Assembly: GCA_038061995.1 (NCBI GenBank) | Contig: JBBTYA010000001.1 | Span: 10,441-74,440, forward strand | DNA length: 64,000 nucleotides | Direction: 5' to 3' | Origin: Patescibacteria group bacterium | GTDB lineage: Bacteria > Patescibacteriota > Minisyncoccia > 2-02-FULL-40-12 > GWA2-44-9 | Made by a program: the position numbers and the translations under genes | Shown: positions 11,101 to 51,259 of the stretch, one piece after another | How positions within the stretch are numbered: the stretch's first letter is position 1 | How the letters are laid out: each line of letters starts with the position of its first letter | Notes under the pieces: generated by a model | What the model was told of the DNA's origin: nothing | What the model saw: only the letters and a program-made list of their open reading frames with translations | Database searches by the model: none

Positions 11101-14100
11101 GCGAGAAGACCCGAAAGTGCGTGCGAGTGACTTGTACCGCCCGTTGTGCCCATAGCAAGCATGGCACTATATACCGTGTTCACATTTGAATAACGGCACG
11201 TTGCAGTCTCATCCGTCGTTGCGGTGAGTGTTGCCGCTGTCGTGGTCACACCCGTTGCGCTTGCCGCGGTAATCACTGGGCCGGCGTTATCGATAGAACG
11301 CGTGTTGTTCGTTGCAGTTGCGTTCGCGTTACCCGCGAGGTCGGTCGCGGTAATCGTAACAGTTGCTGTGCCTTCCTCATCTTGTGCACCAGGAGTCTGC
11401 CAGTTGTAGGTCCACACCGTGTTTGAGGTCTTCGTCATGTTTACGGTTGCCGTGTCACCATCACCAGCAGTCGTAATTGTAATAGTTGGCTTACCAACCA
11501 AAGGTTCGTGGATTGCTTCGCTGAAGGTTGCAGTAATCACCACACCCTCAAACCAGCCGTAGGCTGCTTTATTTGGTGAATAGGTCAGAGCAACAGTTGG
11601 AGCAACAACATCGCCCGTGTTTGCTGTAGTACCCACTACTTCAGCACTTGAAAGGTAGTTGAGCGCGGCGTCGCGGATTTTACTTGCCGCTGGCGTTACG
11701 GCGATCACGTCTCCATTGCGAAGGTAGGTTGCAGTATCAGTGGCGCTTTCAGCAAGCGTAATAGTGAGCGCGCTTCCCGAATACGAGAAGTTCGCACCCG
11801 TAAGGTTAAGTGCTGTGCCATCTGGGCTTTCGATTGCCGAAAATTCATTTGTAGACCACGTACCGTCATGTGCAATCACCGGTTCGCTAAAGGTGATCAC
11901 AATAGTATCGTTCGCGCCCTGAATAGTTGCACCGACGATATTCCCAGCTGGGAGTGTTGGGATCACCGTATCCTTCAAGGCCGTGTCCGTACCTGCGGCG
12001 CTCGTGTTGCCAGCCGCATCTGTTTGCGTGATGCTCAAGGTGAGATCGAGATCATCATCAAGCGAAGAAACGTTAATGCCAGAGATAGAGATAGCACCAA
12101 GTCCATCAACAGTTCCTACGCCCGTTACTGCCGGCGTCAACGCGTTATCGTCATTAATAGACCATGCGAGTGAGGCATTCGCTTCGCCAGTGCCCGTGAT
12201 AGTCACCGCCGTTACGTTGCCAGCATTGATTGGGTCGAGGAGTGTTGGGATTGGAGCCGCTGGCGTGTTCGCGTCCACTGCAACCGTGTTTGCGGTCACG
12301 GTGGTATACGCCACATTCACGTTCCCTGCCGCATCCACGAGCGCAACGCTCGCGGGCACCGTTCCTGAAGCGCGGTCAGTGTTGCCCTCTACAATTGTGT
12401 AGGTTGCTGTGTACGTACCAGCGCCTGCATCGTTATACGCAGTCACCGCAACACCGTTCACCGTTACTGCGCTTGCCGTATATCCCGCCGCATCTGCGGT
12501 GATTGTGATGGTAACAGCATCGCCAACGCCATGGAGGCCGTTTGGAGACAGTACAATCGCACTCACCACTGGCTCTGTGGTATCCACTATAATTGCTGCG
12601 TTTGCCGCAAGGTTGGAACCGGGCACAAAGCTTGCCATCGCATTACTGGCAAGATCTGCTGCGGTGCCCGTGATGCCGGTGGTCGTAAGGTCTGCACTGT
12701 TCTCGCCATCAGCGATCGTGTAGTTGCATGAGCCACTCGTTGCGCTCGTGACTGCAAAAGAACACGAGCCGGTCGTGTCGAGGGTCACAATGAAGTTTAC
12801 TGAAGACGTGATCGCCTCTGAGAAGTTAACCGTGATGTTAATGACATCTGGGTTGTTATATGAGCCATTCGACGTTGTTGACGTCACCGATGTGATAACA
12901 GGATCGACATTATCTGTCGGCGTTATTGTCTGCCCGAGAGGCGAAATATTCCCCACCGAATCCTGCACACCATTCCCAAGGGCACTCATCGTAATCAACA
13001 GTGTATCACCAGTGCCAAATGCAGAGGTCGTGAGCGTAATCACCCCAGCAAGTTCTGAAGTTCCAGAAACGGTTACGCCAGCAACGGTAAAGTCAGAAGC
13101 GGCATCCGTTGTTCCGTTGAGATCCTCGCTGAACGTGACGTTGACAGTTGTCGTTGACGTGGTTTCCGCAGAGATCATCACCGGGCTAGCGCCATCAGTC
13201 TCCGCTTCATCGCCATTAGCAACCGATGCGAGAAGGTTGCCTGCAAGGTCAGCACCGCTTCCTGCCGTATACGTCACCTGCTTTACGTCCGTACCTACAA
13301 TTTCCGGAGCAATCGTAACGTCAAATGTGTTGTCATCTGCCGTTCCTGTGGTAATCCCCGTTGCCGCCGAGCCGCCGATCGTGAAATTGCCAGCAGAGAA
13401 CGTTGAGCCATCAACGGCCGCATCAAATACGATCGTTGCTGTGTCTACCGAACCATTTCCGTTTGCATCTTTTGTAGTAATGCTGGAAATCGTCGGGATC
13501 GTTTCGTCATAAGTAACTGAAGAGCTGTTCGTTGTTGCAGTAACAGCTGCTGCAGCCGCATTTCCGTTCACGTCAGAGAATGTAACCGAGAAAGGCACTA
13601 CGCCTTCCGCTTCTGTGCCAGCAAACGTGTAGGTAGCTGTCCAGTTCGTTGGGCCACCGGCTACAAGCGCGGGATTGCCAGCGATGGTGACCGTCGGCGC
13701 ACCAATACTCTCACTAGAGGTAAATGTAAGCGTGGCTACCGAACCAGTCTGCGCAAACGCCGTATTTACATGGTTTGAGGCGATAGAAACGCTGGTAAGC
13801 GTTGGACGGGTTCCGTCAATCGTAACCGTAACATCGGAACCACTCTGTGCGGCACTTACATTACGCGCATCCGCATGATCCCCCATAGTCACACCAGAAA
13901 TTTGAAGTGCGGAACTTTGGTCAGCACTTCCCGAAGCGACGGTATATGTTGCCGTATATGTAACACCGGAATCTAGCGTAACCCACGGTGTAAGAGCTGT
14001 TCCGTTGTATGAACCAGTAACAAGAGCGGCAGGTTCCGTCGTCGTTGCCGAAGCAGTAAAGGTAATCGAATCGCCAATCTGTAAAACGCCAGCCGGTGCT

Positions 14101-14576
14101 CCATCCGTTACAGATGAGGTGATGGTGTTCAATACTGGAGCTGTGTTGTCGATCTCAAAAGCTCCAGAGAAGCCGATAGGAGCTGCCTGCCCTGCGCGCC
14201 GCATAATGATTGAATACCCCGTATCATCCGTTGTCGGCCCCGCAAGTGTAGTTGCGGTGTTCCAACTATACACACCATCATTTGTCTCACTAAGAGCGAT
14301 AGTGGTCTCATTGTTTAAAGAGTCTCGCAGAAAAATATCAACGGTTTCCGGATCTGCCAAGGGGAGTGTCGTCCACGTGATATTGTGTGTACCACTCCAA
14401 ATTTCACCACCAGCTGGCGAGCCAACCGTAATGCCAGCAATCACCGCTTGCGCTGGAGCCAAAGGTACAAAAAAGCCGCCAAGGAGCATGAGGGCGGCGA
14501 GAACAGCAGCGCTGCGCGATCGCAACGTGCGAGGGGTAGTGACATTCGTGCGTGACAACATAAGTTCCGAATACAA
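8115..14576 (-). CDS. Giant (2153 aa) secreted cell-surface protein made of tandem Ig-like (Big-like) and fibronectin type III-like domains
   Basis: N-terminal signal peptide (AVLAALMLLGGFFVPLAPAQA). At least six ~100-aa repeats of the type TTAPAVPVFTTG...YTLAGT...NGATLVGS...SATASDVAGN, plus Fn3-like units (TITWTTDENATSNVEYG...YHFRVTS). Rich in Thr, Ser, Ala and Val. The start codon is ambiguous. Confidence 0.7.
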   Translation of the reverse strand: MYSELMLSRTNVTTPRTLRSRSAAVLAALMLLGGFFVPLAPAQAVIAGITVGSPAGGEIWSGTHNITWTTLPLADPETVDIFLRDSLNNETTIALSETNDGVYSWNTATTLAGPTTDDTGYSIIMRRAGQAAPIGFSGAFEIDNTAPVLNTITSSVTDGAPAGVLQIGDSITFTASATTTEPAALVTGSYNGTALTPWVTLDSGVTYTATYTVASGSADQSSALQISGVTMGDHADARNVSAAQSGSDVTVTIDGTRPTLTSVSIASNHVNTAFAQTGSVATLTFTSSESIGAPTVTIAGNPALVAGGPTNWTATYTFAGTEAEGVVPFSVTFSDVNGNAAAAAVTATTNSSSVTYDETIPTISSITTKDANGNGSVDTATIVFDAAVDGSTFSAGNFTIGGSAATGITTGTADDNTFDVTIAPEIVGTDVKQVTYTAGSGADLAGNLLASVANGDEAETDGASPVMISAETTSTTTVNVTFSEDLNGTTDAASDFTVAGVTVSGTSELAGVITLTTSAFGTGDTLLITMSALGNGVQDSVGNISPLGQTITPTDNVDPVITSVTSTTSNGSYNNPDVINITVNFSEAITSSVNFIVTLDTTGSCSFAVTSATSGSCNYTIADGENSADLTTTGITGTAADLASNAMASFVPGSNLAANAAIIVDTTEPVVSAIVLSPNGLHGVGDAVTITITADAAGYTASAVTVNGVAVTAYNDAGAGTYTATYTIVEGNTDRASGTVPASVALVDAAGNVNVAYTTVTANTVAVDANTPAAPIPTLLDPINAGNVTAVTITGTGEANASLAWSINDDNALTPAVTGVGTVDGLGAISISGINVSSLDDDLDLTLSITQTDAAGNTSAAGTDTALKDTVIPTLPAGNIVGATIQGANDTIVITFSEPVIAHDGTWSTNEFSAIESPDGTALNLTGANFSYSGSALTITLAESATDTATYLRNGDVIAVTPAASKIRDAALNYLSSAEVVGTTANTGDVVAPTVALTYSPNKAAYGWFEGVVITATFSEAIHEPLVGKPTITITTAGDGDTATVNMTKTSNTVWTYNWQTPGAQDEEGTATVTITATDLAGNANATATNNTRSIDNAGPVITAASATGVTTTAATLTATTDETATCRYSNVNTVYSAMLAMGTTGGTSHSHALSGLLAGAQHTYYVRCQDAGGNTGQWEAIVFTTLQPDTTVPTVTGQTPADNATGVSVAVSPTVTFSEVMDPSTVNSNTVKLKLVAGDVDVTGVVVTLSDSRLVATLNPSSALDYSTNYYIWVSGAKDAAGNDVTAYTTAVSQEFTTEASSADVTAPTVVSISPADNATNVGISTSIAVTFNEEMMESTISSTTIELRKYSDDSVIPASISLIEGNKVAHIMPTSNLSFATQYYVAVSTGVQDIVGNALATALDATTKASYEFTTVADSSDIVAPPVPAITTGVATTTASTYTILGTAAADTPSDSERVIRVYNGATLAGQVTLPIGQTSWSVVVGLSLDTGNSITATSTDASGNSSAASAAVVITNNASTDVDAPVISNVQATSITTTGVTITWTTDENATSNVEYGTTSSYGSSSAVDITANATSHSVAISGLASGTEYHFRVTSADALTNSVTSTDNTFTTVAVADTTAPAVPVFTTGVATTDADTYTLAGTVTNDGGARTVQLYNGATLVGSTVVPAGQTSWSLITALTQNTANVFSATASDVAGNTSGASSTITITEAATIGDVTDPATPVITTGAITVDADSYTITGTSGADLPSDGVRVITIRRNGTVVGSLSLSAGETAWSFVSPLLQSTTNAFSATSTDVSGNESAASSSVTITESATAPDTTAPAVPVFTTGAATVDADTYTLAGTVTDDGGARTIRILNGATLVGSTVVPAGQTTWSFLTALTQGTTNVFSATASDVVGNTSTASSTVTITEAATVGDTTAPATPMISGADTSVDATSYTLSGTAGADLPTDGARIITIYRGGVVVGSLTLPTGVTSWSFIAPLTQNVANTFTVTATDAAGNVSGTSNSRIITEAEGAAALEVTNISSDPSRAFAIANDTYASGWKWFFDVTVPTLEASVSMQFSNFVSGTNTIVAASNIRYYSAESSNAATSGAAITVSAAGTYAGAMTMTGDLDANTAGRQIRIIVEAKIPTGSAGGVYSADYGIQSL
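8700..10000. repeat. Intragenic tandem DNA repeats with a ~300-bp unit and a ~600-bp super-unit, encoding the repeated Ig-like domains near the C-terminus of the giant protein
   Basis: Repeat pairs b/d and c/e of the protein are ~85% identical. The + strand shadow ORFs in the track repeat near-identical peptides (e.g. ...VLPTTSEAVAEKTFVVPCVSAVRNDHVVCPAGTTVEPTSVAPL versus ...VLPATSDAVAENTLAVFCVNAVMRDQLVCPAGTTVEPTRVAPL). Confidence 0.6.
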
Positions 14577-14704
14577 ACCCGTGCGATAAACGATGCGTGC
14601 AACGGAATAGCATGCACCGCCACCTCAAAGGCGTTCATTAGTATTCCATCCTGTCTACTCTTTTATGTTTTCACTGTCAATGAATAGCGCGAAAGCCCAG
14701 CAAA

Positions 14705-14738
14705 AAAGGAAAACCGGGCCTCTCTGGACCCGGTTGTC
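14705..14738 (-). terminator. Rho-independent terminator downstream of the zinc-ribbon gene, which separates it from the giant gene
   Basis: Minus-strand stem ccgggtccagagaggcccgg followed by ttttcctttttt. Confidence 0.45.
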
Positions 14739-14745
14739 AGCCTCA

Positions 14746-14949
14746 CTATGAGGCAGGTTGCGCCGCCGCGAATTCGGCGGCATGCGCCCACAGCACTCCG
14801 CAGAAGGGGCACGCGCGAGCGTCGCCCTGCAGGCAATTCTCGCACTTGCTCCCGCTACACCGCGAACAGGAATACAGAAGGACTCCATCTTCCCCGCAGT
14901 GTGTACAGTTGCCCGCGTGCGTATGGGCGACTACCTTCTCGCTGGCCAT
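14746..14949 (-). CDS. Small Cys-rich protein with four CxxC motifs (double zinc ribbon)
   Basis: The translation MASEKVVAHTHAGNCTHCGEDGVLLYSCSRCSGSKCENCLQGDARACPFCGVLWAHAAEFAAAQPAS carries CTHC, CSRC, CENC and CPFC. It has its own terminator. Confidence 0.4.
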   Translation of the reverse strand: MASEKVVAHTHAGNCTHCGEDGVLLYSCSRCSGSKCENCLQGDARACPFCGVLWAHAAEFAAAQPAS

Positions 14950-15002
14950 CAGATCACCTCCTCTTCATGTATCTCGATTGGCCCTATCACTATACCACAA
15001 AA

Positions 15003-15857
15003 CTAAGAATTCGTGAAGATTCTCGTTTTGCGCTCTACGATCTCCTCTACCGCCGCGGCGGCATCAGCAAGATATTTATACGGCGTTGTTTCGTCTGGGT
15101 TCTCCGCGAGTTCTTCTTTCAGTTCTTTCTGATATGCAACCCGCAGTTCAGTATTAAAATGTACGTTCGAAACGCCCGCCGCTATCGCCGCTTTTATCTG
15201 CTCGTCAGGCAGTCCAGAAGCTCCATGGAGCACGTAAAACGGTTGTGGTGCAGCGGCAATAATGCGGGAAAAATGCTCAATATCAAGTTTTTCTTCTTGT
15301 TTGGTTACAATCCCGTGGATATTCCCAAACACTACAGCTAGGCGATCTACACCCGTTTTCGCTATAAAATCGGCCGCTTGCGCAGGTTGTGTATAGTCTT
15401 CTGCGCTAATAGAAATCTCCTCCTGTACCTGTGAAGCACCCTTAAGATAGCCGAGTTCCCCTTCTACGGTCACGGGACGCCCACACGCACGCGCATGCGC
15501 CACGACTGCCTGCACCGCCGCAACGTTCTCTTCATAGGAAAGGCGCGAGGTATCAATGATCACTGAATCATAGCCTGCATCAATAGCCATAGTGCACCGC
15601 TCTACGCTCTTGAAGTGATCGGCGTTTAAAAAGATGGGGAATGAAAGCTCTTTCTCCAGTGCGCGCACCAGCGCAACTGCTTCGGTAATGCCAATAAAAT
15701 CAGCTTCCTTTTCTGATGTTCCTACCATCACGCACGAAGCGCCCGCTCTGCGCGCACCCACAACAATAGCGCGCAACACATCTGCGGTCGCAAAGTTAAA
15801 ATGGCCGATGGCCTGCTGGCGCCCTCGCGCCTCGCGCATGTAGTCGTTGAGATGCAT
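15003..15857 (-). CDS. fba: Class II fructose-bisphosphate aldolase family protein
   Basis: FLNADH, HGASG and AAGVSNVHFNTE motifs of class II (zinc-dependent) FBA/tagatose-bisphosphate aldolase. Confidence 0.8.
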   Translation of the reverse strand: MHLNDYMREARGRQQAIGHFNFATADVLRAIVVGARRAGASCVMVGTSEKEADFIGITEAVALVRALEKELSFPIFLNADHFKSVERCTMAIDAGYDSVIIDTSRLSYEENVAAVQAVVAHARACGRPVTVEGELGYLKGASQVQEEISISAEDYTQPAQAADFIAKTGVDRLAVVFGNIHGIVTKQEEKLDIEHFSRIIAAAPQPFYVLHGASGLPDEQIKAAIAAGVSNVHFNTELRVAYQKELKEELAENPDETTPYKYLADAAAAVEEIVERKTRIFTNS

Positions 15858-46332: not shown

Positions 46333-46470
46333 GAAAAGCATCATACGGTATTTTCCAAAAAATTACCAGTATAAAAAGATGGGGGCCCACAGTAATGGTA
46401 TTAGTAGCACCACGGCTGCGTGGAAGTGATTCATTGACACGGGTGGCATGCGGCGCACAATGGAAGTACT

Positions 46471-47127
46471 GTGGTCATCTCAATCTCAAAACGCACAATC
46501 ACACTCTTACTCATCGGCTTTGGTATTGTTACATATTTCACCACTCAGTTCTGGCCGCTACCAGAGACTCTCTTATTAGACGTACCTTTCACTAACCAAG
46601 CTCCGACGGGCATGTGGGACCGCAACGAAGACTGTGAAGAAGCAAGTATTGCGATGGCACAAGCATATCTCTCCGGCGACACGGAAAATCTACTACCATC
46701 TGCGGGGGCAACGTCCTATATCAGTAGGTTGCGCGCATGGAAACAGGCAAATATTGGCTACAATGCCGACACTGGCGCATATGCAACCTCTCGTATGGCG
46801 GAAGGTGCGTTTGGTATTACCGTGAAGCAAATTCATAATTATACCGAAACTGATCTGAAGCGTGCGCTAGCTAAGAACCACGTTGTGCTATTACCGATTG
46901 ATGCACGCATGCTGGGGGCGCAATCGTATACGAACTCCGGTCCCACCTACCACATGGTTGTTGTGCGAGGATACACCGCCACCCACTTCATCGTGAATGA
47001 CCCCGGTACCACAGGTGGCAATGGCGTAGAGTATTCGTTTGACACCCTTTTTGCAGCAGCAGCGGACTGGAATAATGCTGCAAAAATTATGGACTCGACA
47101 ATCAAGGTCGCCCTTATCCTTTCTTGA
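46471..47127 (+). CDS. Peptidase C39-like (papain-fold, BtrH-like) domain protein with an N-terminal TM helix
   Basis: Catalytic-type Cys context NEDCEEASIAMAQAYL and a His near HMVVVRGYTA. N-terminal hydrophobic helix. Confidence 0.5.
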   Translation: MVISISKRTITLLLIGFGIVTYFTTQFWPLPETLLLDVPFTNQAPTGMWDRNEDCEEASIAMAQAYLSGDTENLLPSAGATSYISRLRAWKQANIGYNADTGAYATSRMAEGAFGITVKQIHNYTETDLKRALAKNHVVLLPIDARMLGAQSYTNSGPTYHMVVVRGYTATHFIVNDPGTTGGNGVEYSFDTLFAAAADWNNAAKIMDSTIKVALILS

Positions 47128-47206
47128 TGAAGTGAAGCTATATACAGTCCCCACATATAAGCGCACACTATAGGAGAGTAAGGAAGGTCATTAACATCTT
47201 AACTAT

Positions 47207-47819: not shown

Positions 47820-47845
47820 AAAGCAGCCATGCTCTCTAACATAAA

Positions 47846-47872
47846 ACGACCCACGTGGGTCGTTTTATTGCA
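47846..47872 (+). terminator. Rho-independent terminator after the yeaQ-like gene
   Basis: Stem aaacgacccac gtgggtcgttt followed by tatt. Confidence 0.5.
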
Positions 47873-47889
47873 TTCTATATAGAAAATGT

Positions 47890-48212
47890 AAAGAAAAAGG
47901 GCCCCGATGCGTTGGGGCCCAGAACGACAGCAACCCTACCAGGGCGTAACACTGAGAACTCCACAACGGTGAAGCCCTCCTTCTCGGCATTCAGCCAGTT
48001 GAGCTCTCACTGGCCTGAGGCTTGAAGTCGCCTCCGTAGCTTCGGTAGCGAGTTTTCGCATTTAGGAACCTTAGCTAACGGTCTGGGTTTACGTCTCAGC
48101 GATGTGCTGCTGAAAAAAGGTACGAACGATCCTCCCTCTCGTCTCTATACGAACCAGTCCCAAAACCTCGGCTTCTGGTATGCCCTAGCTTGGGTAGAGA
48201 CTTTCAGGCTGC
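47890..48212 (-). ncRNA. Candidate ~320-nt GC-rich structured ncRNA of unknown class, with no ORF, delimited by a promoter (TTGACG, 17 nt, TAAACT at 48220-48248) and a rho-independent terminator (47898-47921)
   Basis: No ORF of 60 aa or more on either strand. Promoter and terminator geometry are good. Internal hairpins include GCCAGUGAGAGCUCAACUGGC. The tests made for RNase P P4 (GGAAAGUCCGG), the tmRNA termini and the SRP domain IV motif were negative. Confidence 0.35.
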
Positions 48213-48247
48213 CACGACAAGTTTAGTACACTCAGAAAAATCGTCAA

Positions 48248-48273
48248 GAAAAAGCGACGGTCGAAACCGTCGC
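48248..48273 (-). terminator. Rho-independent terminator after the island gene 48391-48669
   Basis: Minus-strand stem gcgacgg tttcga ccgtcgc followed by tttttc. Confidence 0.4.
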
Positions 48274-48390
48274 CTGCAGGCCTCCTGGTTTTTACACCAT
48301 CAGCCCGCCGAAGTAGCGATGCTCACCGAGCACCGTCCCGGCAGGAACAGCCAGTCTCCCTCAATGTGTAATGTGGCTCCAAAACAAGGA

Positions 48391-48669
48391 CTACTGGATC
48401 TCCTTTCTCTTAGTAAGAACGTCTTCGGCCTTTTTAGAAAGTCCGAGGTCTCCAGTAAGATCGATTAGTTGATTATCCGATAAGAATATTAGTCCCTCGG
48501 ACAACTCCGCTTCAACTTTTATTTTTTCTTCCAAGTCTTCTGAAGACACATTTTGAACATTTATCTTATCACCGGGCATGGCTTCATAGGCTCGAATAGA
48601 AGTCTTCCTTAGAAGCTCCTTATACCTTTTAAATAGCGCTTGATATTTTTTTACAGAATTTATATCCAT
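48391..48669 (-). CDS. Hypothetical Lys/Glu-rich small protein (AT-rich island gene 4 of 4)
   Basis: 92-aa ORF in a segment whose GC is visibly lower than its flanks. Confidence 0.35.
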   Translation of the reverse strand: MDINSVKKYQALFKRYKELLRKTSIRAYEAMPGDKINVQNVSSEDLEEKIKVEAELSEGLIFLSDNQLIDLTGDLGLSKKAEDVLTKRKEIQ

Positions 48670-48672
48670 TAC

Positions 48673-49236
48673 TTATTTTCTTACCCACACCTGTTGTCGA
48701 GTATTAATTGTTGACCAATCATAGGCAGAAATATAGGTTTGGCTCCCTTTAAGTTTAGCTCCATTTTCTGTTAACTTCATTAAGAAAGCGCCTTTGCCCA
48801 TATTATTACTATCTCTAGCCTTACTATTACACATAAGTATGGTGTCAACGAAAGTACCTTCAAACTCAAACAACTTTCTACACTTTTCACCACTAGGTTG
48901 TTTTGTTAAAAGTAACTCTCCATAAATCTTATTCCCTTGTTGGTTTAAAATTACTGTTGATTCTGAGTCCGGCCCAACCACATACTCACCTCCCTCAATC
49001 GTTGCCGCATATCCAAGCCATTCCCCACGTATATTAATACCCTTGTAAATTAAATTCTGATACCAGGGAAGTACTATTTTTCTAAAAATAGAGATTGTAA
49101 ACCCAATAATAACGTAGGTTATTATACCAGCCACTACGCCCAAAAAAAGATTTACAGCTGCATAATTTATGTATGCATTCATAGAAGCCATCGGCTCCGA
49201 GTCGTAAACGACGTTAGAACTATTGCGCAACAGCAA
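48673..49236 (-). CDS. Hypothetical membrane-anchored protein (island gene 3 of 4)
   Basis: 187 aa with one N-terminal TM helix (LFLGVVAGIITYVIIGFTISIF) and then a soluble domain. Confidence 0.35.
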   Translation of the reverse strand: MLLRNSSNVVYDSEPMASMNAYINYAAVNLFLGVVAGIITYVIIGFTISIFRKIVLPWYQNLIYKGINIRGEWLGYAATIEGGEYVVGPDSESTVILNQQGNKIYGELLLTKQPSGEKCRKLFEFEGTFVDTILMCNSKARDSNNMGKGAFLMKLTENGAKLKGSQTYISAYDWSTINTRQQVWVRK

Positions 49237-49268
49237 AATCGGTATATCTACATTCCTGATTTAAGGAA

Positions 49269-49463
49269 TTATCCTACTCTCATCAGCGCTCCTAATGCAT
49301 CAGCCCAGAGTTGGTCGTAATCTTTACTTCTTGAAATAAAAATTCTTGAGCCGTCTTTCTTCATGCCCCAAATCTCCAAATCCTGTCGGATTAAAGCCAT
49401 ATCCTTTTGGAGTGCCAAAAGCACTGCTTCCTCTTTATCTTTTTGTCGCTGTTCTTCGGTCAT
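49269..49463 (-). CDS. Hypothetical small protein (island gene 2 of 4)
   Basis: 64-aa ORF. Confidence 0.3.
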   Translation of the reverse strand: MTEEQRQKDKEEAVLLALQKDMALIRQDLEIWGMKKDGSRIFISRSKDYDQLWADALGALMRVG

Positions 49464-49469
49464 TATATT

Positions 49470-50060
49470 TTACCCCACGGGGCTACTCACTATTATCTTT
49501 AATAGCTCATCAAGAATAAGTGGATATTCTTTTATGTTATCGCTTCCTCCTATATGCCCCTTGCCTTTTACCACAATCGTTTTAGCTCCTAACCTATCTT
49601 CGAATAAATCCTTGTTCTCCAATGGAACATATGGGTCATTATCTGAAAAAATAGCTGTTATGTGATTAATAGTATGTTTTACTTTTTCATTATTCATCGG
49701 AGTATCAAGCCACGGTTGAGCGGTTTGCTTATCTTTTTCATCATCAAAAGCATCGTCGGTAAGAGTGTACCAGCCAGCCACCGCCACAACGCCACCTACT
49801 TTTGTATGAGCTTTTTCTAAGTATCTTAAAATAGTTTGGACTCCTATGCTATGGCCAACAAAATAGGTGTTCTCGTCTGGAGTTTCGACTAGATTATCTA
49901 GAAAGGAAACCCATGTATCTATTTTGGGAGCTTCTGCCTCTGGCATTAATGGAACCTCTGCCTGTATCCCTCGTTTTTCTAACTCTTCTTCCAGCCATAA
50001 AAACCAGCACTCCTCTGGATAGCCAGCCCAGCCGTGGATGATATAGACTCGTTTTAACAT
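49470..50060 (-). CDS. Alpha/beta-hydrolase (YdeN/RBBP9-like serine hydrolase) (island gene 1 of 4)
   Basis: IIHGWAG and the GHSIG nucleophile elbow, with a later His. Confidence 0.6.
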   Translation of the reverse strand: MLKRVYIIHGWAGYPEECWFLWLEEELEKRGIQAEVPLMPEAEAPKIDTWVSFLDNLVETPDENTYFVGHSIGVQTILRYLEKAHTKVGGVVAVAGWYTLTDDAFDDEKDKQTAQPWLDTPMNNEKVKHTINHITAIFSDNDPYVPLENKDLFEDRLGAKTIVVKGKGHIGGSDNIKEYPLILDELLKIIVSSPVG

Positions 50061-50253
50061 AAAACCTATCTTATCATTTTTTACTCAAAAGTTCTAACGT
50101 CCACAAAGGGTCAAAGCAAAACACCGCAGAAGATGCGGTGTTTTGGAACTGCTCCGAGTCTTTGGGGGTATTAGAAAGTATTATCTCCTATCTTCAGTGC
50201 ACCATAATTGATGAACTAAAGAACGGAGTAGGTCAACAAGCGGACCTGCAACG

Positions 50254-50529
50254 CTATCCTAGTGCGGGGATTAGCACCCTCCAGAGAGTGATAGCAGCCA
50301 TAAGGAATGGCACTACCACCCCGAAGAATGCGACAAACTTCTTGAAACCGGAAGTCTCTAAAAACGCCTTGCTCCATGTCACGAACACGAAGCCGTTAAT
50401 ACAGAGCTGAAGCAAACCTGCGAGCAGATTAGCTCCCACGAACAGGTTCGTACAGTTGGCGATCAAGAAGAACGAAAGTCCAGCTAAACCAGAAGCGGCC
50501 ATGAGCCTTGAGTTCTTATCCAATTGCAC
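50254..50529 (-). CDS. Hypothetical small membrane protein
   Basis: 91-aa hydrophobic ORF between the island and the tRNA. Confidence 0.3.
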   Translation of the reverse strand: MQLDKNSRLMAASGLAGLSFFLIANCTNLFVGANLLAGLLQLCINGFVFVTWSKAFLETSGFKKFVAFFGVVVPFLMAAITLWRVLIPALG

Positions 50530-50575
50530 CCTCCAAAAAACATAATACCACTTTTGTGGTATTATGTCAATAATC

Positions 50576-50854
50576 TGGCTCCGCGGGTAGGACTCGAACC
50601 TACAACCCTCTCGTTACACGAATTCCAGTATTTTCATACCGGCGTGGACTATATCTTCACCATATCGCATATGCGACACAGGCGTTCTGGTATCTAGTCT
50701 CTACGGCGCCCCCGCCGAGGCGGGGTTCCCACGGTATTACCTCTCGTAAAAAACGAAGGGGCTTCACCGTTATCCCAGAAAGTTTCAATGCGCCTTTCGA
50801 CGCAAAGCTGCGTTTATCTCACAGCGAGACGCTCTACCATTGAGCTACCGCGGA
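50576..50854 (-). tRNA. tRNA-Asn (anticodon GTT) interrupted by a ~204-nt group I intron (50617-50820) in the anticodon loop between positions 35 and 36. It encodes the 3' CCA.
   Basis: The 5' exon TCCGCGGTAGCTCAATGGTAGAGCGTCTCGCTGT and the 3' exon TAACGAGAGGGTTGTAGGTTCGAGTCCTACCCGCGGAGCCA join to a canonical cloverleaf. The intron carries group I conserved elements: the S-like AAGATATAGTCC and the R-like GTAGAGACTAGATACC. The internal guide sequence GCAGC pairs with exon GCUGU, giving a U.G pair at the 5' splice site. The intron ends with G. Confidence 0.7.
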
Positions 50855-51177
50855 ATATTTTTTGTATAAGTGCTTGGAATCTTTCTTACCTTTGCGTGTA
50901 TCTCTCGATGACAATTTGCACACACCAGAATGCATTTATCAGCTTCCGCCTTTATCTTTTCTAGAGATCGCGTAAGCCCCCGAGCTGAAAGCCCGAACTC
51001 TTTCTGATGCGCGACTACGTGATGCAGATCAAGGGCCCAAATAGACCGCTTATATCCGCAAAACACACACGCACCACCTCTATATGCCACAACGAGAGAT
51101 CGAAGCTTGCGCCTTCGCGCTGCAACAGCCTTTTTGAGATACTCAGCTCGATCGCGATAGGTTCTCACATCTGGCAT
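50845..51177 (-). CDS. HNH endonuclease, free-standing, immediately upstream of the intron-containing tRNA
   Basis: CVFCGY...LDLHHV...CANCHREIH HNH zinc-finger motifs. The start was placed at MPDVRTY (51177), which has a TATACT element 9 nt upstream. Confidence 0.6.
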   Translation of the reverse strand: MPDVRTYRDRAEYLKKAVAARRRKLRSLVVAYRGGACVFCGYKRSIWALDLHHVVAHQKEFGLSARGLTRSLEKIKAEADKCILVCANCHREIHAKVRKIPSTYTKNIPR

Positions 51178-51259
51178 ATACACTGTAGTATACCACAAAA
51201 CCCCATGCCTGAGAACCCTATCGCAACCAAGTATATTGAGGATAGCCCCAAAAAGCAAC

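What the first reader, a model, noticed from the sequence alone, without database searches (positions are those of the whole stretch)
48391..50560. AT-rich four-gene island next to the tRNA-Asn, with a degenerate tRNA-end-like repeat at the far boundary
Positions 48391-50060 hold four co-directional minus-strand ORFs: an alpha/beta hydrolase (YdeN-like), a 64-aa protein, a TM-anchored 187-aa protein and a 92-aa K/E-rich protein. Their GC content is markedly lower than the surrounding DNA. The island ends near a tRNA gene, and tRNAs are a classic integration target. At the distal end, the stretch ggctccaaaacaaggactactgg (48377-48399) resembles the tRNA 3' end ggctccgcgggtaggactcgaacc, with GGCTCC and AGGACT blocks conserved. 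No integrase gene is visible, so this may be a decayed genomic island. The four-gene module has no obvious metabolic role and could be an accessory system such as an abortive-infection or defence cassette.
Basis: partly seen in the sequence, partly recalled or inferred. Interest (0 to 1): 0.6.

Follow-up and report, generated by a model that had tools for sequence, protein, structure and literature searches.

The report
Acquired gene islet beside tRNA-Asn
A 1.7-kb AT-rich block of four small genes in a Patescibacteria genome is foreign DNA sitting in a spot next to a tRNA-Asn gene where mobile elements repeatedly insert in related bacteria; it is an ordinary decayed genomic islet, but it carries a rare, uncharacterised two-gene membrane module.

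Summary
Four co-directional minus-strand genes (48391-50060) have 38.6% GC against 52.3 ± 1.9% elsewhere (z = -7) and atypical codon usage. The host is a Patescibacteria (CPR) bacterium. The closest relative found (about 84% nt identity) keeps both flanks but has a different 3.2 kb between them. The window also retains a frameshifted stub of that relative's DUF5680 gene, so island-specific DNA is 48358-50092.

The tRNA-Asn is real, but a 204-nt group I intron splits it. It lies 516 bp from the island, separated by a 91-aa gene and a conserved terminator. The far-boundary repeat matches the tRNA 3' end plus flank at 17 of 25 positions, the best match in the window (local shuffle P about 5e-4).

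In relatives, dnaG-rpoD-tRNA-Asn is conserved. The DNA downstream is usually low-GC and variable, sometimes bounded by exact tRNA-end repeats, and six relatives carry a large serine recombinase there.

The island is composite. One part is a YdeN-type hydrolase plus a 64-aa domain protein. The other is a conserved pair: a single-pass membrane protein with a cytoplasmic 8-stranded beta-barrel, plus a 92-aa helical partner. PADLOC finds nothing. A defence or toxin-like role is only suggested by context and architecture.

The parts
48358..50092 (-). Island-specific AT-rich DNA, 1735 bp. It has no counterpart in the close relative L002.
   Evidence: BLASTN of the window against L002 and junction sequences. 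GC profile.
49470..50060 (-). YdeN/RBBP9-type serine hydrolase, 196 aa. The GHSIG nucleophile motif places Ser at residue 71.
   Evidence: PF06821, E 5.8e-22. PDB 1uxo YdeN, E 4.2e-21, and RBBP9, E 4e-13. The motif was read from the translation.
49269..49463 (-). 64-aa protein (p64). It belongs to a small domain family that elsewhere is fused to NUDIX, glyoxalase, metallophosphoesterase, RNase H and DUF3850 domains.
   Evidence: 41 cluster representatives with E <= 1e-3. Pfam scan of the longer members.
48673..49191 (-). Single-pass membrane protein, 172 aa. It has an N-terminal helix with a conserved G-V-x-x-G-x-x-T motif, a PWYQxxIYxG junction, and a cytoplasmic 8-stranded beta-barrel.
48391..48669 (-). 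92-aa four-helix partner protein (p92) with a conserved FLSDxQLIDLSGD motif. Its start lies 3 nt after the stop of the membrane-protein gene.
   Evidence: Alignments A1, A5 and A6. AF2 pLDDT 80.9. Family of 14 clusters.
48369..48393 (-). Degenerate direct copy of the tRNA-Asn 3' end plus 5 nt of its flank (TAGTCCTTGTTTTGGAGCCACATTA; 17 of 25 positions match). It looks like an attR remnant.
   Evidence: A comparable remnant (GAGCCAGATT) lies 50 nt after the pair in L087.
48300..48357 (-). Frameshifted 3' stub of a DUF5680 gene that is intact in L002 (15944-16468). It marks the deletion that accompanied the replacement.
48252..48275 (-). Intrinsic terminator conserved with L002. It originally ended the DUF5680 gene and is now the first terminator downstream of the island genes.
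50093..50156 (-). Conserved block holding a terminator hairpin (50117-50145). In L002 it directly follows tRNA-Asn. It forms the tRNA-proximal boundary of the island.
   Evidence: repeat I9.
50157..50575 (-). 419-bp segment absent from L002. It carries a near-consensus promoter (50542-50570, 11 of 12 matches) and a 91-aa membrane ORF (50254-50529, host-like GC). CGGAGC sits at both of its ends.
50576..50854 (-). tRNA-Asn(GTT) split at position 35/36 by a group I intron. The exons are 50821-50854 and 50576-50616; the intron is 50617-50820.
   Evidence: This class of intron is described in PMC13011429.
49210..49230 (.). One arm of an 18-of-21 inverted repeat. The other arm is at 50081-50101. Together they bracket the hydrolase + p64 unit.
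   Evidence: repeat I1. Its significance is uncertain.

Best explanation
The AT-rich block (48358-50092) is horizontally acquired accessory DNA in a Patescibacteria chromosome. It occupies the hypervariable region just downstream of the conserved dnaG-rpoD-tRNA-Asn locus, which in this clade serves as an integration hot spot.

Shown:
- The block is compositionally foreign.
- The closest relative has different genes between the same flanks.
- The window keeps a truncated stub of one of that relative's genes.

Inferred:
- The DNA, or its precursor, arrived through integrative elements that target the tRNA-Asn 3' end. Large serine recombinases sit at exactly this position in six relatives.
- The integrase was later lost and the region was rearranged. 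What remains is orphan cargo and a degenerate copy of the tRNA 3' end plus flank at the far boundary.

The cargo is composite.
1. A YdeN/RBBP9-type serine hydrolase plus a 64-aa domain protein. Both are typical of the small-enzyme arrays found in variable regions of Patescibacteria.
2. A tightly coupled two-gene module. One gene encodes a single-pass membrane protein whose conserved GxxxG-type helix probably self-associates and whose 8-stranded beta-barrel faces the cytoplasm. The other encodes a 92-aa helical partner.

My working mechanism for the pair, at low confidence (about 0.3), is a membrane-acting conflict module. The barrel protein would act as the effector by oligomerising in the membrane, in the manner of the Cap15/OptE type of TM-beta-barrel effectors. 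The small partner would regulate or neutralise it.
For: Composition:
- GC is 38.6% against 52.3 ± 1.9% (z = -7.1). GC3 is 0.34 against 0.52 ± 0.06.

Comparison with the closest relative:
- L002 has DnaG 92% identical in protein sequence and about 84% nt identity over shared genes.
- Its flanks align with window 50093-50156 and 48246-48357. Between them lie 3.2 kb of unrelated genes, including NUDIX and DUF5680 genes.
- The DUF5680 3' stub is frameshifted in the window.

Hot spot in relatives:
- dnaG-rpoD-tRNA-Asn synteny occurs in more than 25 related contigs.
- GC drops downstream of the tRNA in about 12 of 19 loci.
- Exact tRNA-end direct repeats of 17-19 nt occur in L008 and L010.
- Resolvase + Recombinase + Zn_ribbon_recom proteins abut or overlap the tRNA 3' end in L017 and L022. 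Homologues lie at the same relative position in L006, L078, L070 and L009.
- Several contigs end at the tRNA.

Repeats:
- The far-boundary repeat matches 17 of 25 positions, the best non-self match in the window, local P 5.5e-4.
- In L087 the pair sits 8 nt after tRNA-Asn at the same dnaG-rpoD locus. It has 30% GC against about 47% in the flanks, and GAGCCAGATT follows 50 nt after the pair.
- In L082 tRNA-end-like repeats separate cassettes downstream of tRNA-Asn.

The pair:
- It is conserved in window, L087, L082-86, L088, L089, L103, L106 and L108, with gene gaps of 2-17 nt.
- AF2 gives pLDDT 91.8.
- G18, G22 and T25 are conserved in 45-48 of 49 members. The positive-inside rule puts the barrel in the cytoplasm in 45 of 49 members.
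- Neighbours include EcoRI R-M and a HEPN-like gene (L082), a type III R-M system (L106) and DUF3800 (L108).
Against: - No integrase or integrase remnant is present in the window.
- The island lies beyond a terminator that directly follows the tRNA in L002. A single clean integration at the tRNA 3' end therefore cannot explain the present layout.
- The distal repeat mismatches the tRNA at all six central positions, and its significance rests partly on choices made after seeing the sequence.
- In L088, L089 and L103 the pair has no tRNA-Asn or tRNA-like repeats nearby. The pair is therefore not itself a tRNA-targeting cassette.
- Functional part: there are no PADLOC or Pfam hits. Foldseek ranks avidins first, at E about 1e-3, and Cap15 is not in its top 50, so the Cap15 resemblance is at fold level only.
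- The protein has one TM helix rather than two, and there is no nucleotide cyclase nearby.
- Distant homologues in Nitrospirillum and Pseudomonas are solo genes in unremarkable contexts.
Confidence: 0.55

Rival explanations
1. The block was exchanged by homologous or illegitimate recombination between related Patescibacteria, using conserved flanks as anchors. On this view the proximity to tRNA-Asn is incidental to the mechanism and the far-boundary repeat is a chance match.
For: - Both boundaries fall in or next to sequence conserved with L002, and the change is a replacement with a deletion rather than an insertion.
- A Ser_hydrolase is also the first gene after tRNA-Asn in the distant relative L033. 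A lower-GC relative with a similar gene order could therefore have been the donor.
- On 20 nt alone the repeat scores 13/20, which is common in the window.
- No integrase is present.
Against: - With its flank the repeat matches 17 of 25 positions, the best non-self match in the window, and it sits within 35 nt of the boundary.
- Relatives show real site-specific signatures at this tRNA.
- In L087 the pair is inserted exactly at the tRNA end with a displaced end remnant.
Confidence: 0.25
2. All four genes form a single functional cassette, for example a defence system in which the serine hydrolase is an enzymatic component.
For: - The genes are co-directional, with gaps of 6, 77 and 3 nt, and no terminator is predicted inside the block on the coding strand.
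- An alpha/beta hydrolase lies near the pair in two other contexts: a Ser_hydrolase in L103 and an Abhydrolase_1 in L108.
Against: - The pair occurs without any hydrolase or p64 in L087, L082, L088, L089 and L106.
- p64 relatives are fused to unrelated small enzymes.
- An 18-of-21 inverted repeat brackets only the hydrolase + p64 unit.
- PADLOC gives no hit.
Confidence: 0.1
3. The genes are native and vertically inherited. Their low GC would reflect functional or expression constraints, and the relative has simply lost them.
For: In low-GC hosts the pair has host-like GC, as in L089, so the family may intrinsically prefer AT-rich coding.
Against: - GC3 of all four genes is at or below the minimum of 49 reference ORFs.
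- The window, not the relative, carries the truncated gene stub at the boundary.
- The same pair is also 15-17 GC points below its host in L087.
Confidence: 0.05
4. The block is a remnant of a prophage or plasmid.
For: An HNH endonuclease with strong phage-family matches lies 0.8 kb away.
Against: - The four proteins have no convincing PHROG matches; the only hit is marginal (p92, E 0.066).
- IMG/VR contigs hold no relatives of either pair protein.
- The island DNA gives no BLASTN match in the phage or plasmid collections.
- The HNH gene goes with the tRNA intron, not with the island.
Confidence: 0.03

Closest known systems
tRNA-gene-associated genomic islands and decayed integrative elements (integrase-less remnants, comparable to cis-mobilisable elements)
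   Same: - The composition is atypical.
- The block is absent from the closest relative.
- It lies downstream of a tRNA gene that is a proven integration target in relatives.
- A partial direct copy of the tRNA 3' end sits at the far boundary.
   Different: - No integrase is present.
- The block is only 1.7 kb.
- It is separated from the tRNA by a host-like gene and a conserved terminator.
- The repeat is strongly degenerate.
- The recombinases seen in relatives are large serine recombinases rather than the usual tyrosine integrases.
Cap15, OptE and PanE (S-2TM-beta effectors of the CBASS, Panoptes and PanDA systems)
- The gene sits in a two-gene operon of small genes.
- It occurs in variable or defence-rich neighbourhoods.
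   Different: - It has one TM helix, not two.
- There is no sequence match to S_2TMBeta or PADLOC models.
- The partner is a 92-aa all-helical protein, not a nucleotide cyclase (CD-NTase, mCpol or mDAC).
- The gene order is effector first.
- Avidins and designed barrels match the fold equally well.
YdeN (B. subtilis) and RBBP9 serine hydrolases, Pfam PF06821
   Same: Full-length HMM and PDB sequence matches, and the GHSxG nucleophile motif is present.
   Different: The substrate and role are unknown for bacterial members. Here the gene is a horizontally acquired copy in a variable region.
Type II toxin-antitoxin and small two-gene abortive-infection modules
   Same: Two small, translationally coupled genes that are patchily distributed, AT-rich relative to the host, and found in hot spots next to R-M systems.
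   Different: There is no homology to any known toxin or antitoxin family, no DNA-binding domain is recognisable in the small protein, and toxicity is untested.

Membership tests
tRNA-integrated genomic island | Composition and codon usage differ from the host genome. | tested here: met
   GC z = -7.1. GC3 is 0.34 against 0.52 ± 0.06.
tRNA-integrated genomic island | Absent from closely related genomes at the same locus. | tested here: met
   L002 keeps both flanks but has a different 3.2 kb between them. Only one close relative was available.
tRNA-integrated genomic island | Inserted directly at the 3' end of a tRNA gene. | tested here: not met
   516 bp separate the tRNA end from the first island gene. 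They hold a host-like 91-aa ORF and a terminator that directly follows the tRNA in L002.
tRNA-integrated genomic island | A direct repeat of the tRNA 3' end at the distal boundary. | tested here: inconclusive
   The repeat matches 17 of 25 positions, the best non-self match in the window, local P 5.5e-4. It is degenerate, mismatching at all six central positions, and the query length was chosen after seeing the sequence.
tRNA-integrated genomic island | Encodes an integrase or recombinase. | tested here: not met
   Neighbouring genes carry no recombinase domain. tBLASTN with the relatives' LSRs finds nothing in the window.
Cap15 / S-2TM-beta effectors | Two N-terminal transmembrane helices. 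| tested here: not met
   The AF2 model shows a single continuous helix, residues 2-48, with one hydrophobic segment.
Cap15 / S-2TM-beta effectors | A C-terminal soluble beta-barrel. | tested here: met
Cap15 / S-2TM-beta effectors | Sequence membership (Pfam S_2TMBeta or PADLOC effector models). | tested here: not met
   The window protein has no hit. Across 49 family members, one weak '2TM' hit at E 0.004 is the only effector-model match. A profile search against PDB sequences does not find Cap15.
Cap15 / S-2TM-beta effectors | Operon partner is a nucleotide cyclase (CD-NTase, mCpol or mDAC). | tested here: not met
   The partner is a 92-aa four-helix protein with no family match.
Cap15 / S-2TM-beta effectors | Binds a cyclic nucleotide and disrupts the membrane by oligomerising. 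| not testable with these tools
   This needs biochemistry. The only related observation is a conserved GxxxG-type motif in the TM helix.
PF06821 Ser_hydrolase (YdeN/RBBP9) | HMM score above the curated cut-off over the full length. | tested here: met
   78.9 bits against a cut-off of 22, covering profile positions 1-168 of 172.
PF06821 Ser_hydrolase (YdeN/RBBP9) | Nucleophile elbow G-H-S-x-G. | tested here: met
   GHSIG occupies residues 69-73 of the translation. The Asp and His of the triad were not checked residue by residue.
Known anti-phage defence systems (PADLOC-DB v2) | Any component matches a defence-system model. | tested here: not met
   The four proteins give no hit better than E 0.02.
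Type II toxin-antitoxin | Homology to a known toxin or antitoxin family. | tested here: not met
   No Pfam, NCBIfam or PADLOC match. The gene-pair architecture is compatible.

The most novel reading that the evidence does not exclude
The membrane-barrel protein and its 92-aa partner would be a previously undescribed two-gene conflict module, acting in phage defence or as a toxin-immunity pair. A single-pass, GxxxG-mediated oligomerising TM-beta-barrel effector would be controlled by a small helical protein rather than by a cyclic-nucleotide synthase. That would make it a cyclase-less counterpart of the Cap15/OptE effectors, spreading among Patescibacteria through tRNA-Asn and other hot spots.
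Probability: 0.2. Interest if true: 0.6.

Novelty: new member of a known kind. Interest (0 to 1): 0.4.

Why it matters
As a genomic islet this is routine biology. The comparison does show that the dnaG-rpoD-tRNA-Asn locus is a recurrent, large-serine-recombinase-served integration hot spot across one clade of Patescibacteria. These are organisms with tiny genomes whose accessory and defence gene flow is poorly mapped. The work also isolates a rare two-gene module, with about 52 and 14 sequence clusters among 5.8 billion. It has a confident structure prediction and no annotation, which makes it a concrete candidate for experimental testing as a membrane-acting defence or toxin system.

Tried and rejected
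Searches that found nothing useful:
- PADLOC, PHROGs and NCBIfam scans of the island proteins gave nothing for the three small proteins.
- Pfam and PADLOC scans of all 49 members of the barrel family gave only scattered hits at noise level.
- Profile searches of both pair families against PDB sequences gave nothing meaningful. The only feature picked up was a glycophorin-like GxxxG segment.
- The AFDB Foldseek library was unavailable.
- IMG/VR scans for both pair proteins and BLASTN of the island against phage and plasmid collections found no match.

Ideas tested and dropped:
- I looked for conserved non-coding termini shared by all copies of the pair, which a self-contained mobile cassette would have. 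None exist.
- I considered that the pair always accompanies tRNA-Asn. L088, L089 and L103 reject this.
- I considered the motif GACTCGGAGC as an att core. It occurs in the window only at 50151-50160 and 49194-49203, but it overlaps a Shine-Dalgarno-like GGAG before the membrane-protein start codon, so I leave it as a possibility only.
- I considered that 47820-48390 holds a structured RNA. Rfam finds nothing there. Part of it is the DUF5680 stub and its terminator.
Full report
**What is in the sequence**

The four minus-strand ORFs exist as described. They are a 196-aa protein (49470-50060), a 64-aa protein (49269-49463), a membrane protein (48673-49236) and a 92-aa K/E-rich protein (48391-48669). 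The membrane protein's more likely start is ATG 49191, giving 172 aa; a gene caller on an identical public contig gives 169 aa.

The first protein is a YdeN/RBBP9-type serine hydrolase. It matches PF06821 at E 5.8e-22 and PDB 1uxo YdeN at E 4.2e-21, and it has a GHSIG nucleophile motif. The other three proteins have no Pfam, NCBIfam, PHROG or PADLOC assignment.

The block has 38.6% GC. Equal-length windows elsewhere average 52.3 ± 1.9%, with a minimum of 47.1%, so z = -7.1. Pooled GC3 is 0.34 against 0.52 ± 0.06 for 49 reference ORFs. Every island gene lies at or below the minimum of that reference set.

**The tRNA**

ARAGORN and Rfam at gathering threshold report no tRNA here. The sequence nevertheless contains both halves of a tRNA-Asn(GTT). 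They are separated by 204 nt that match the group I intron model at 44.5 bits (E 2.4e-9), just under the gathering score of 50.

Joining window 50854-50821 to 50616-50576 gives a sequence that ARAGORN calls tRNA-Asn. It is identical to the uninterrupted gene of a close relative. The intron sits between anticodon positions 35 and 36. This class of intron was recently described and shown to splice in Patescibacteria (PMC13011429).

The tRNA is therefore real. However, its 3' end (50576) is 516 bp from the hydrolase start.

**Host and closest relative**

A scan of GTDB species genomes with the neighbouring DnaG protein returned only Patescibacteria/CPR genomes of the Paceibacteria and Yanofskybacteria type. 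The best hit is L002 (JBBTTB010000008.1), with 92% DnaG protein identity and about 84% nucleotide identity over shared genes.

L002 aligns with the window through dnaG, rpoD and both tRNA exons, which are contiguous in L002. It also aligns with a 64-nt terminator block (window 50093-50156), with window 48246-48357, and with the two small membrane genes further left.

Between the terminator block and the 48246-48357 block, L002 has 3.2 kb of unrelated genes. These include two unknown ORFs, a NUDIX gene, a 65-aa membrane protein gene and a DUF5680 gene.

Window 48300-48357 is the last 19 or so codons of that DUF5680 gene, with a 1-nt frameshift, followed by its terminator. The island-specific DNA is therefore 48358-50092. 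The window lineage underwent a replacement that deleted most of a resident gene.

L002 also lacks three other features: the intron, the HNH gene upstream of the tRNA, and the 419-bp segment carrying the 91-aa ORF.

**The far-boundary repeat**

In the orientation of the tRNA, window 48393-48369 reads TAGTCCTTGTTTTGGAGCCACATTA. The tRNA end plus its flank reads GAGTCCTACCCGCGGAGCCAGATTA.

- Over the 20 nt ending in CCA the match is 13/20. Matches at least that good occur at eight other places on that strand of the window besides the tRNA end itself.
- Over 25 nt, including 5 nt of flank, the match is 17/25. This is the best non-self match on either strand of the window. About 0.5 are expected per strand per 64 kb.
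- In composition-matched shuffles of the 120 nt around the boundary, such a match arises with P = 5.5e-4.

The length was chosen after seeing the sequence, so the true significance is weaker. I still judge the repeat more likely real than chance. It keeps the blocks that are conserved among tRNA-Asn variants of the clade, and it keeps the register of T-stem, acceptor strand, discriminator base and CCA.

**The locus is an integration hot spot in the clade**

- dnaG-rpoD-tRNA-Asn synteny recurs in more than 25 of the related contigs.
- In about 12 of 19 loci with enough sequence, GC falls by 5-20 points immediately after the tRNA. In several it recovers 1.5-2.5 kb later.
- L008 and L010 carry exact 17- and 19-nt direct copies of the tRNA 3' end, 1.4 kb and 0.18 kb downstream.
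- In L017 and L022, a large serine recombinase gene (Resolvase + Recombinase + Zn_ribbon_recom) overlaps the tRNA 3' end on the opposite strand. It is followed by Mrr, DUF5677 or methyltransferase genes.
- Homologous recombinases lie at the same relative position in L006, L078, L070 and L009. L006 also has an Eco57I-type enzyme and an SNF2 helicase.
- Several contigs end at or just after the tRNA, including the Logan contig identical to the window. This fits strain-level variability at the site.
- The window contains no recombinase or recognisable remnant of one.

**The island is composite**

Homologues of the membrane protein are rare. A single-sequence search found 3 clusters, and a profile search found 52 among 5.8 billion. 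The p92 family has 14 clusters.

The two genes occur together, 2-17 nt apart, in these contexts:
- the window;
- L087;
- L082-86, where p92 is interrupted;
- L088, L089, L103, L106 and L108.

In most of these contexts there is no Ser_hydrolase or p64 gene. More distant barrel-family members (25-31% identity), including those of Nitrospirillum iridis and a Pseudomonas strain, lack p92.

The p64 family has 41 cluster representatives. Some are fused to NUDIX (three cases), glyoxalase, metallophosphoesterase, RNase H or DUF3850 domains. This places p64 among the small-enzyme arrays typical of variable regions in these genomes.

A Ser_hydrolase 44% identical to the window's is the first gene after tRNA-Asn in L033. 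An 18-of-21 inverted repeat brackets only the hydrolase + p64 unit (repeat I1). Roughly 0.05 such repeats are expected in 3.5 kb by my own binomial estimate, not by a tool result.

**How the pair relates to tRNA-Asn**

In L087, a Parcubacteria MAG, the pair starts 8 nt after tRNA-Asn at the same dnaG-rpoD locus. Its GC is 29-30% against 45-50% in the flanks. The 10-mer GAGCCAGATT lies 50 nt beyond the pair. That 10-mer is exactly the tRNA end plus flank of the window. This layout is what integration into the tRNA 3' end, with displacement of the original end, would produce.

In L082 the pair lies 1.5 kb downstream of a tRNA-Asn at a different locus. Two degenerate tRNA T-arm/acceptor-like repeats separate the cassettes, and an EcoRI R-M system follows.

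In L088, L089 and L103 there is no tRNA-Asn and there are no such repeats. The pair is therefore cargo that is often, but not always, delivered to this hot spot. It is not a self-contained tRNA-targeting element.

The present order in the window is: tRNA, 91-aa gene, terminator shared with L002, hydrolase, p64, pair, repeat, gene stub. This order needs several events, and I cannot resolve their sequence.

**What the pair may do**

AlphaFold2 with a 49-sequence alignment gives a confident model (pLDDT 91.8). It has one long N-terminal helix (residues 2-48) followed by an eight-stranded antiparallel barrel (residues 56-171).

Foldseek puts avidins first at E about 1e-3, and Cap15 is not in its top 50. 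The resemblance is therefore at the level of a minimal barrel fold.

The architecture is still the one that defines Cap15, OptE and PanE effectors: a membrane segment fused to a small cytoplasmic barrel that, in those proteins, controls membrane-disrupting oligomerisation (PMC10419184, PMC12657218, bioRxiv 10.64898/2026.08.10.743972).

Two features of the family support an active membrane role rather than a passive anchor:
- The transmembrane helix carries a nearly invariant G-V-x-x-G-x-x-T motif of the glycophorin type, with G18 in 48/49, G22 in 47/49 and T25 in 45/49 members. A nearly invariant PWYQ motif follows at the membrane-barrel junction.
- The charge distribution puts the barrel in the cytoplasm in 45 of 49 members.

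The differences from the S-2TM-beta family are clear. There is one helix rather than two, no sequence match to any S-2TM-beta or PADLOC model, and no nucleotide cyclase nearby. The partner p92 is a four-helix protein (pLDDT 80.9) with only generic structural neighbours.

Neighbourhoods include EcoRI R-M with a HEPN-like gene (L082), a type III R-M system (L106) and DUF3800 (L108). Others are unremarkable.

I therefore propose a membrane-acting effector plus regulator, working either as a defence or as a toxin-immunity module. I put this at about 0.3 confidence. It is an inference, not a demonstration.

**Verdict**

The reading as a decayed island at a tRNA hot spot is broadly right. The reading as a single four-gene system is not supported. 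Nothing links the block to phages or plasmids.

As an island it is a new member of a well-known kind. The uncharacterised pair is the part worth an experiment.

Noticed in passing
window 50576-50854 (minus strand): The tRNA-Asn(GTT) is interrupted at anticodon position 35/36 by a 204-nt group I intron (50617-50820). Standard tRNA finders miss the gene. The close relative L002 has the identical tRNA without the intron. This intron class was published in 2026 (PMC13011429).
   Followed up: yes
window 50845-51258 (minus strand); L052 5014-5560; L036 3644-3874: A 137-aa HNH endonuclease ORF (phrog_2255, E 1.3e-26) lies immediately 5' of the intron-bearing tRNA, and its stop codon falls inside the tRNA's first bases. 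L002 lacks both the ORF and the intron. In L052 a 57%-identical HNH gene lies inside the tRNA-Asn intron, with the 5' exon upstream of it. The same endonuclease is therefore intron-encoded in one genome and free-standing beside the tRNA in another.
   Followed up: partly
window 50157-50575: A 419-bp segment between the tRNA end and its terminator is absent from L002. It has a near-consensus promoter (TTGACA-17-TATTAT preceded by TG) and a 91-aa membrane ORF with host-like GC. CGGAGC sits at both ends. A similar promoter follows tRNA-Asn in L013, so I cannot tell whether this is an insertion here or a deletion in L002.
   Followed up: partly
window 49194-49203 and 50151-50160 (minus strand): The 10-mer GACTCGGAGC occurs only twice in the 64-kb window. 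One copy lies before the shared terminator and the other lies just before the start codon of the membrane-barrel gene. Both contain the tRNA acceptor-end core CGGAGC, but the second also serves as a Shine-Dalgarno-like GGAG.
   Followed up: partly
window 49210-49230 and 50081-50101: An 18-of-21 inverted repeat brackets exactly the hydrolase + 64-aa gene unit. One arm overlaps the boundary with sequence conserved in L002. No target-site duplication is visible and the origin is unexplained.
   Followed up: no
L017 9275-10894; L022 13836-15452; L006 about 14096-15580; L078, L070, L009: Large serine recombinase genes overlap or abut the 3' end of tRNA-Asn in six related Patescibacteria contigs, followed by restriction-modification or Mrr genes. 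This points to a clade-wide family of tRNA-Asn-targeting integrative elements.
   Followed up: partly
window 46397-47137 and 47928-48245 compared with L002 18113-19782 and 16513-17323: Two further segments near the island differ between the window and L002. One is the C39-peptidase gene region. The other is a 320-nt stretch where L002 has 810 nt holding a 224-aa ORF. The whole 4-kb neighbourhood is mosaic.
   Followed up: no
window 50269-50336 (minus strand): Rfam gives a sub-threshold match to the HCV_SLVII family (32.8 bits against a gathering score of 63) inside the 91-aa ORF. It is almost certainly a chance hairpin.
   Followed up: no
L103 1160-6675: In a contig from the Hainich groundwater site, the same site as L002, the pair is followed by NUDIX, Ser_hydrolase, NUDIX, CYTH and PfkB genes. 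This is an array of small nucleotide- and ester-hydrolysing enzymes resembling the cargo in the window and in L002.
   Followed up: no
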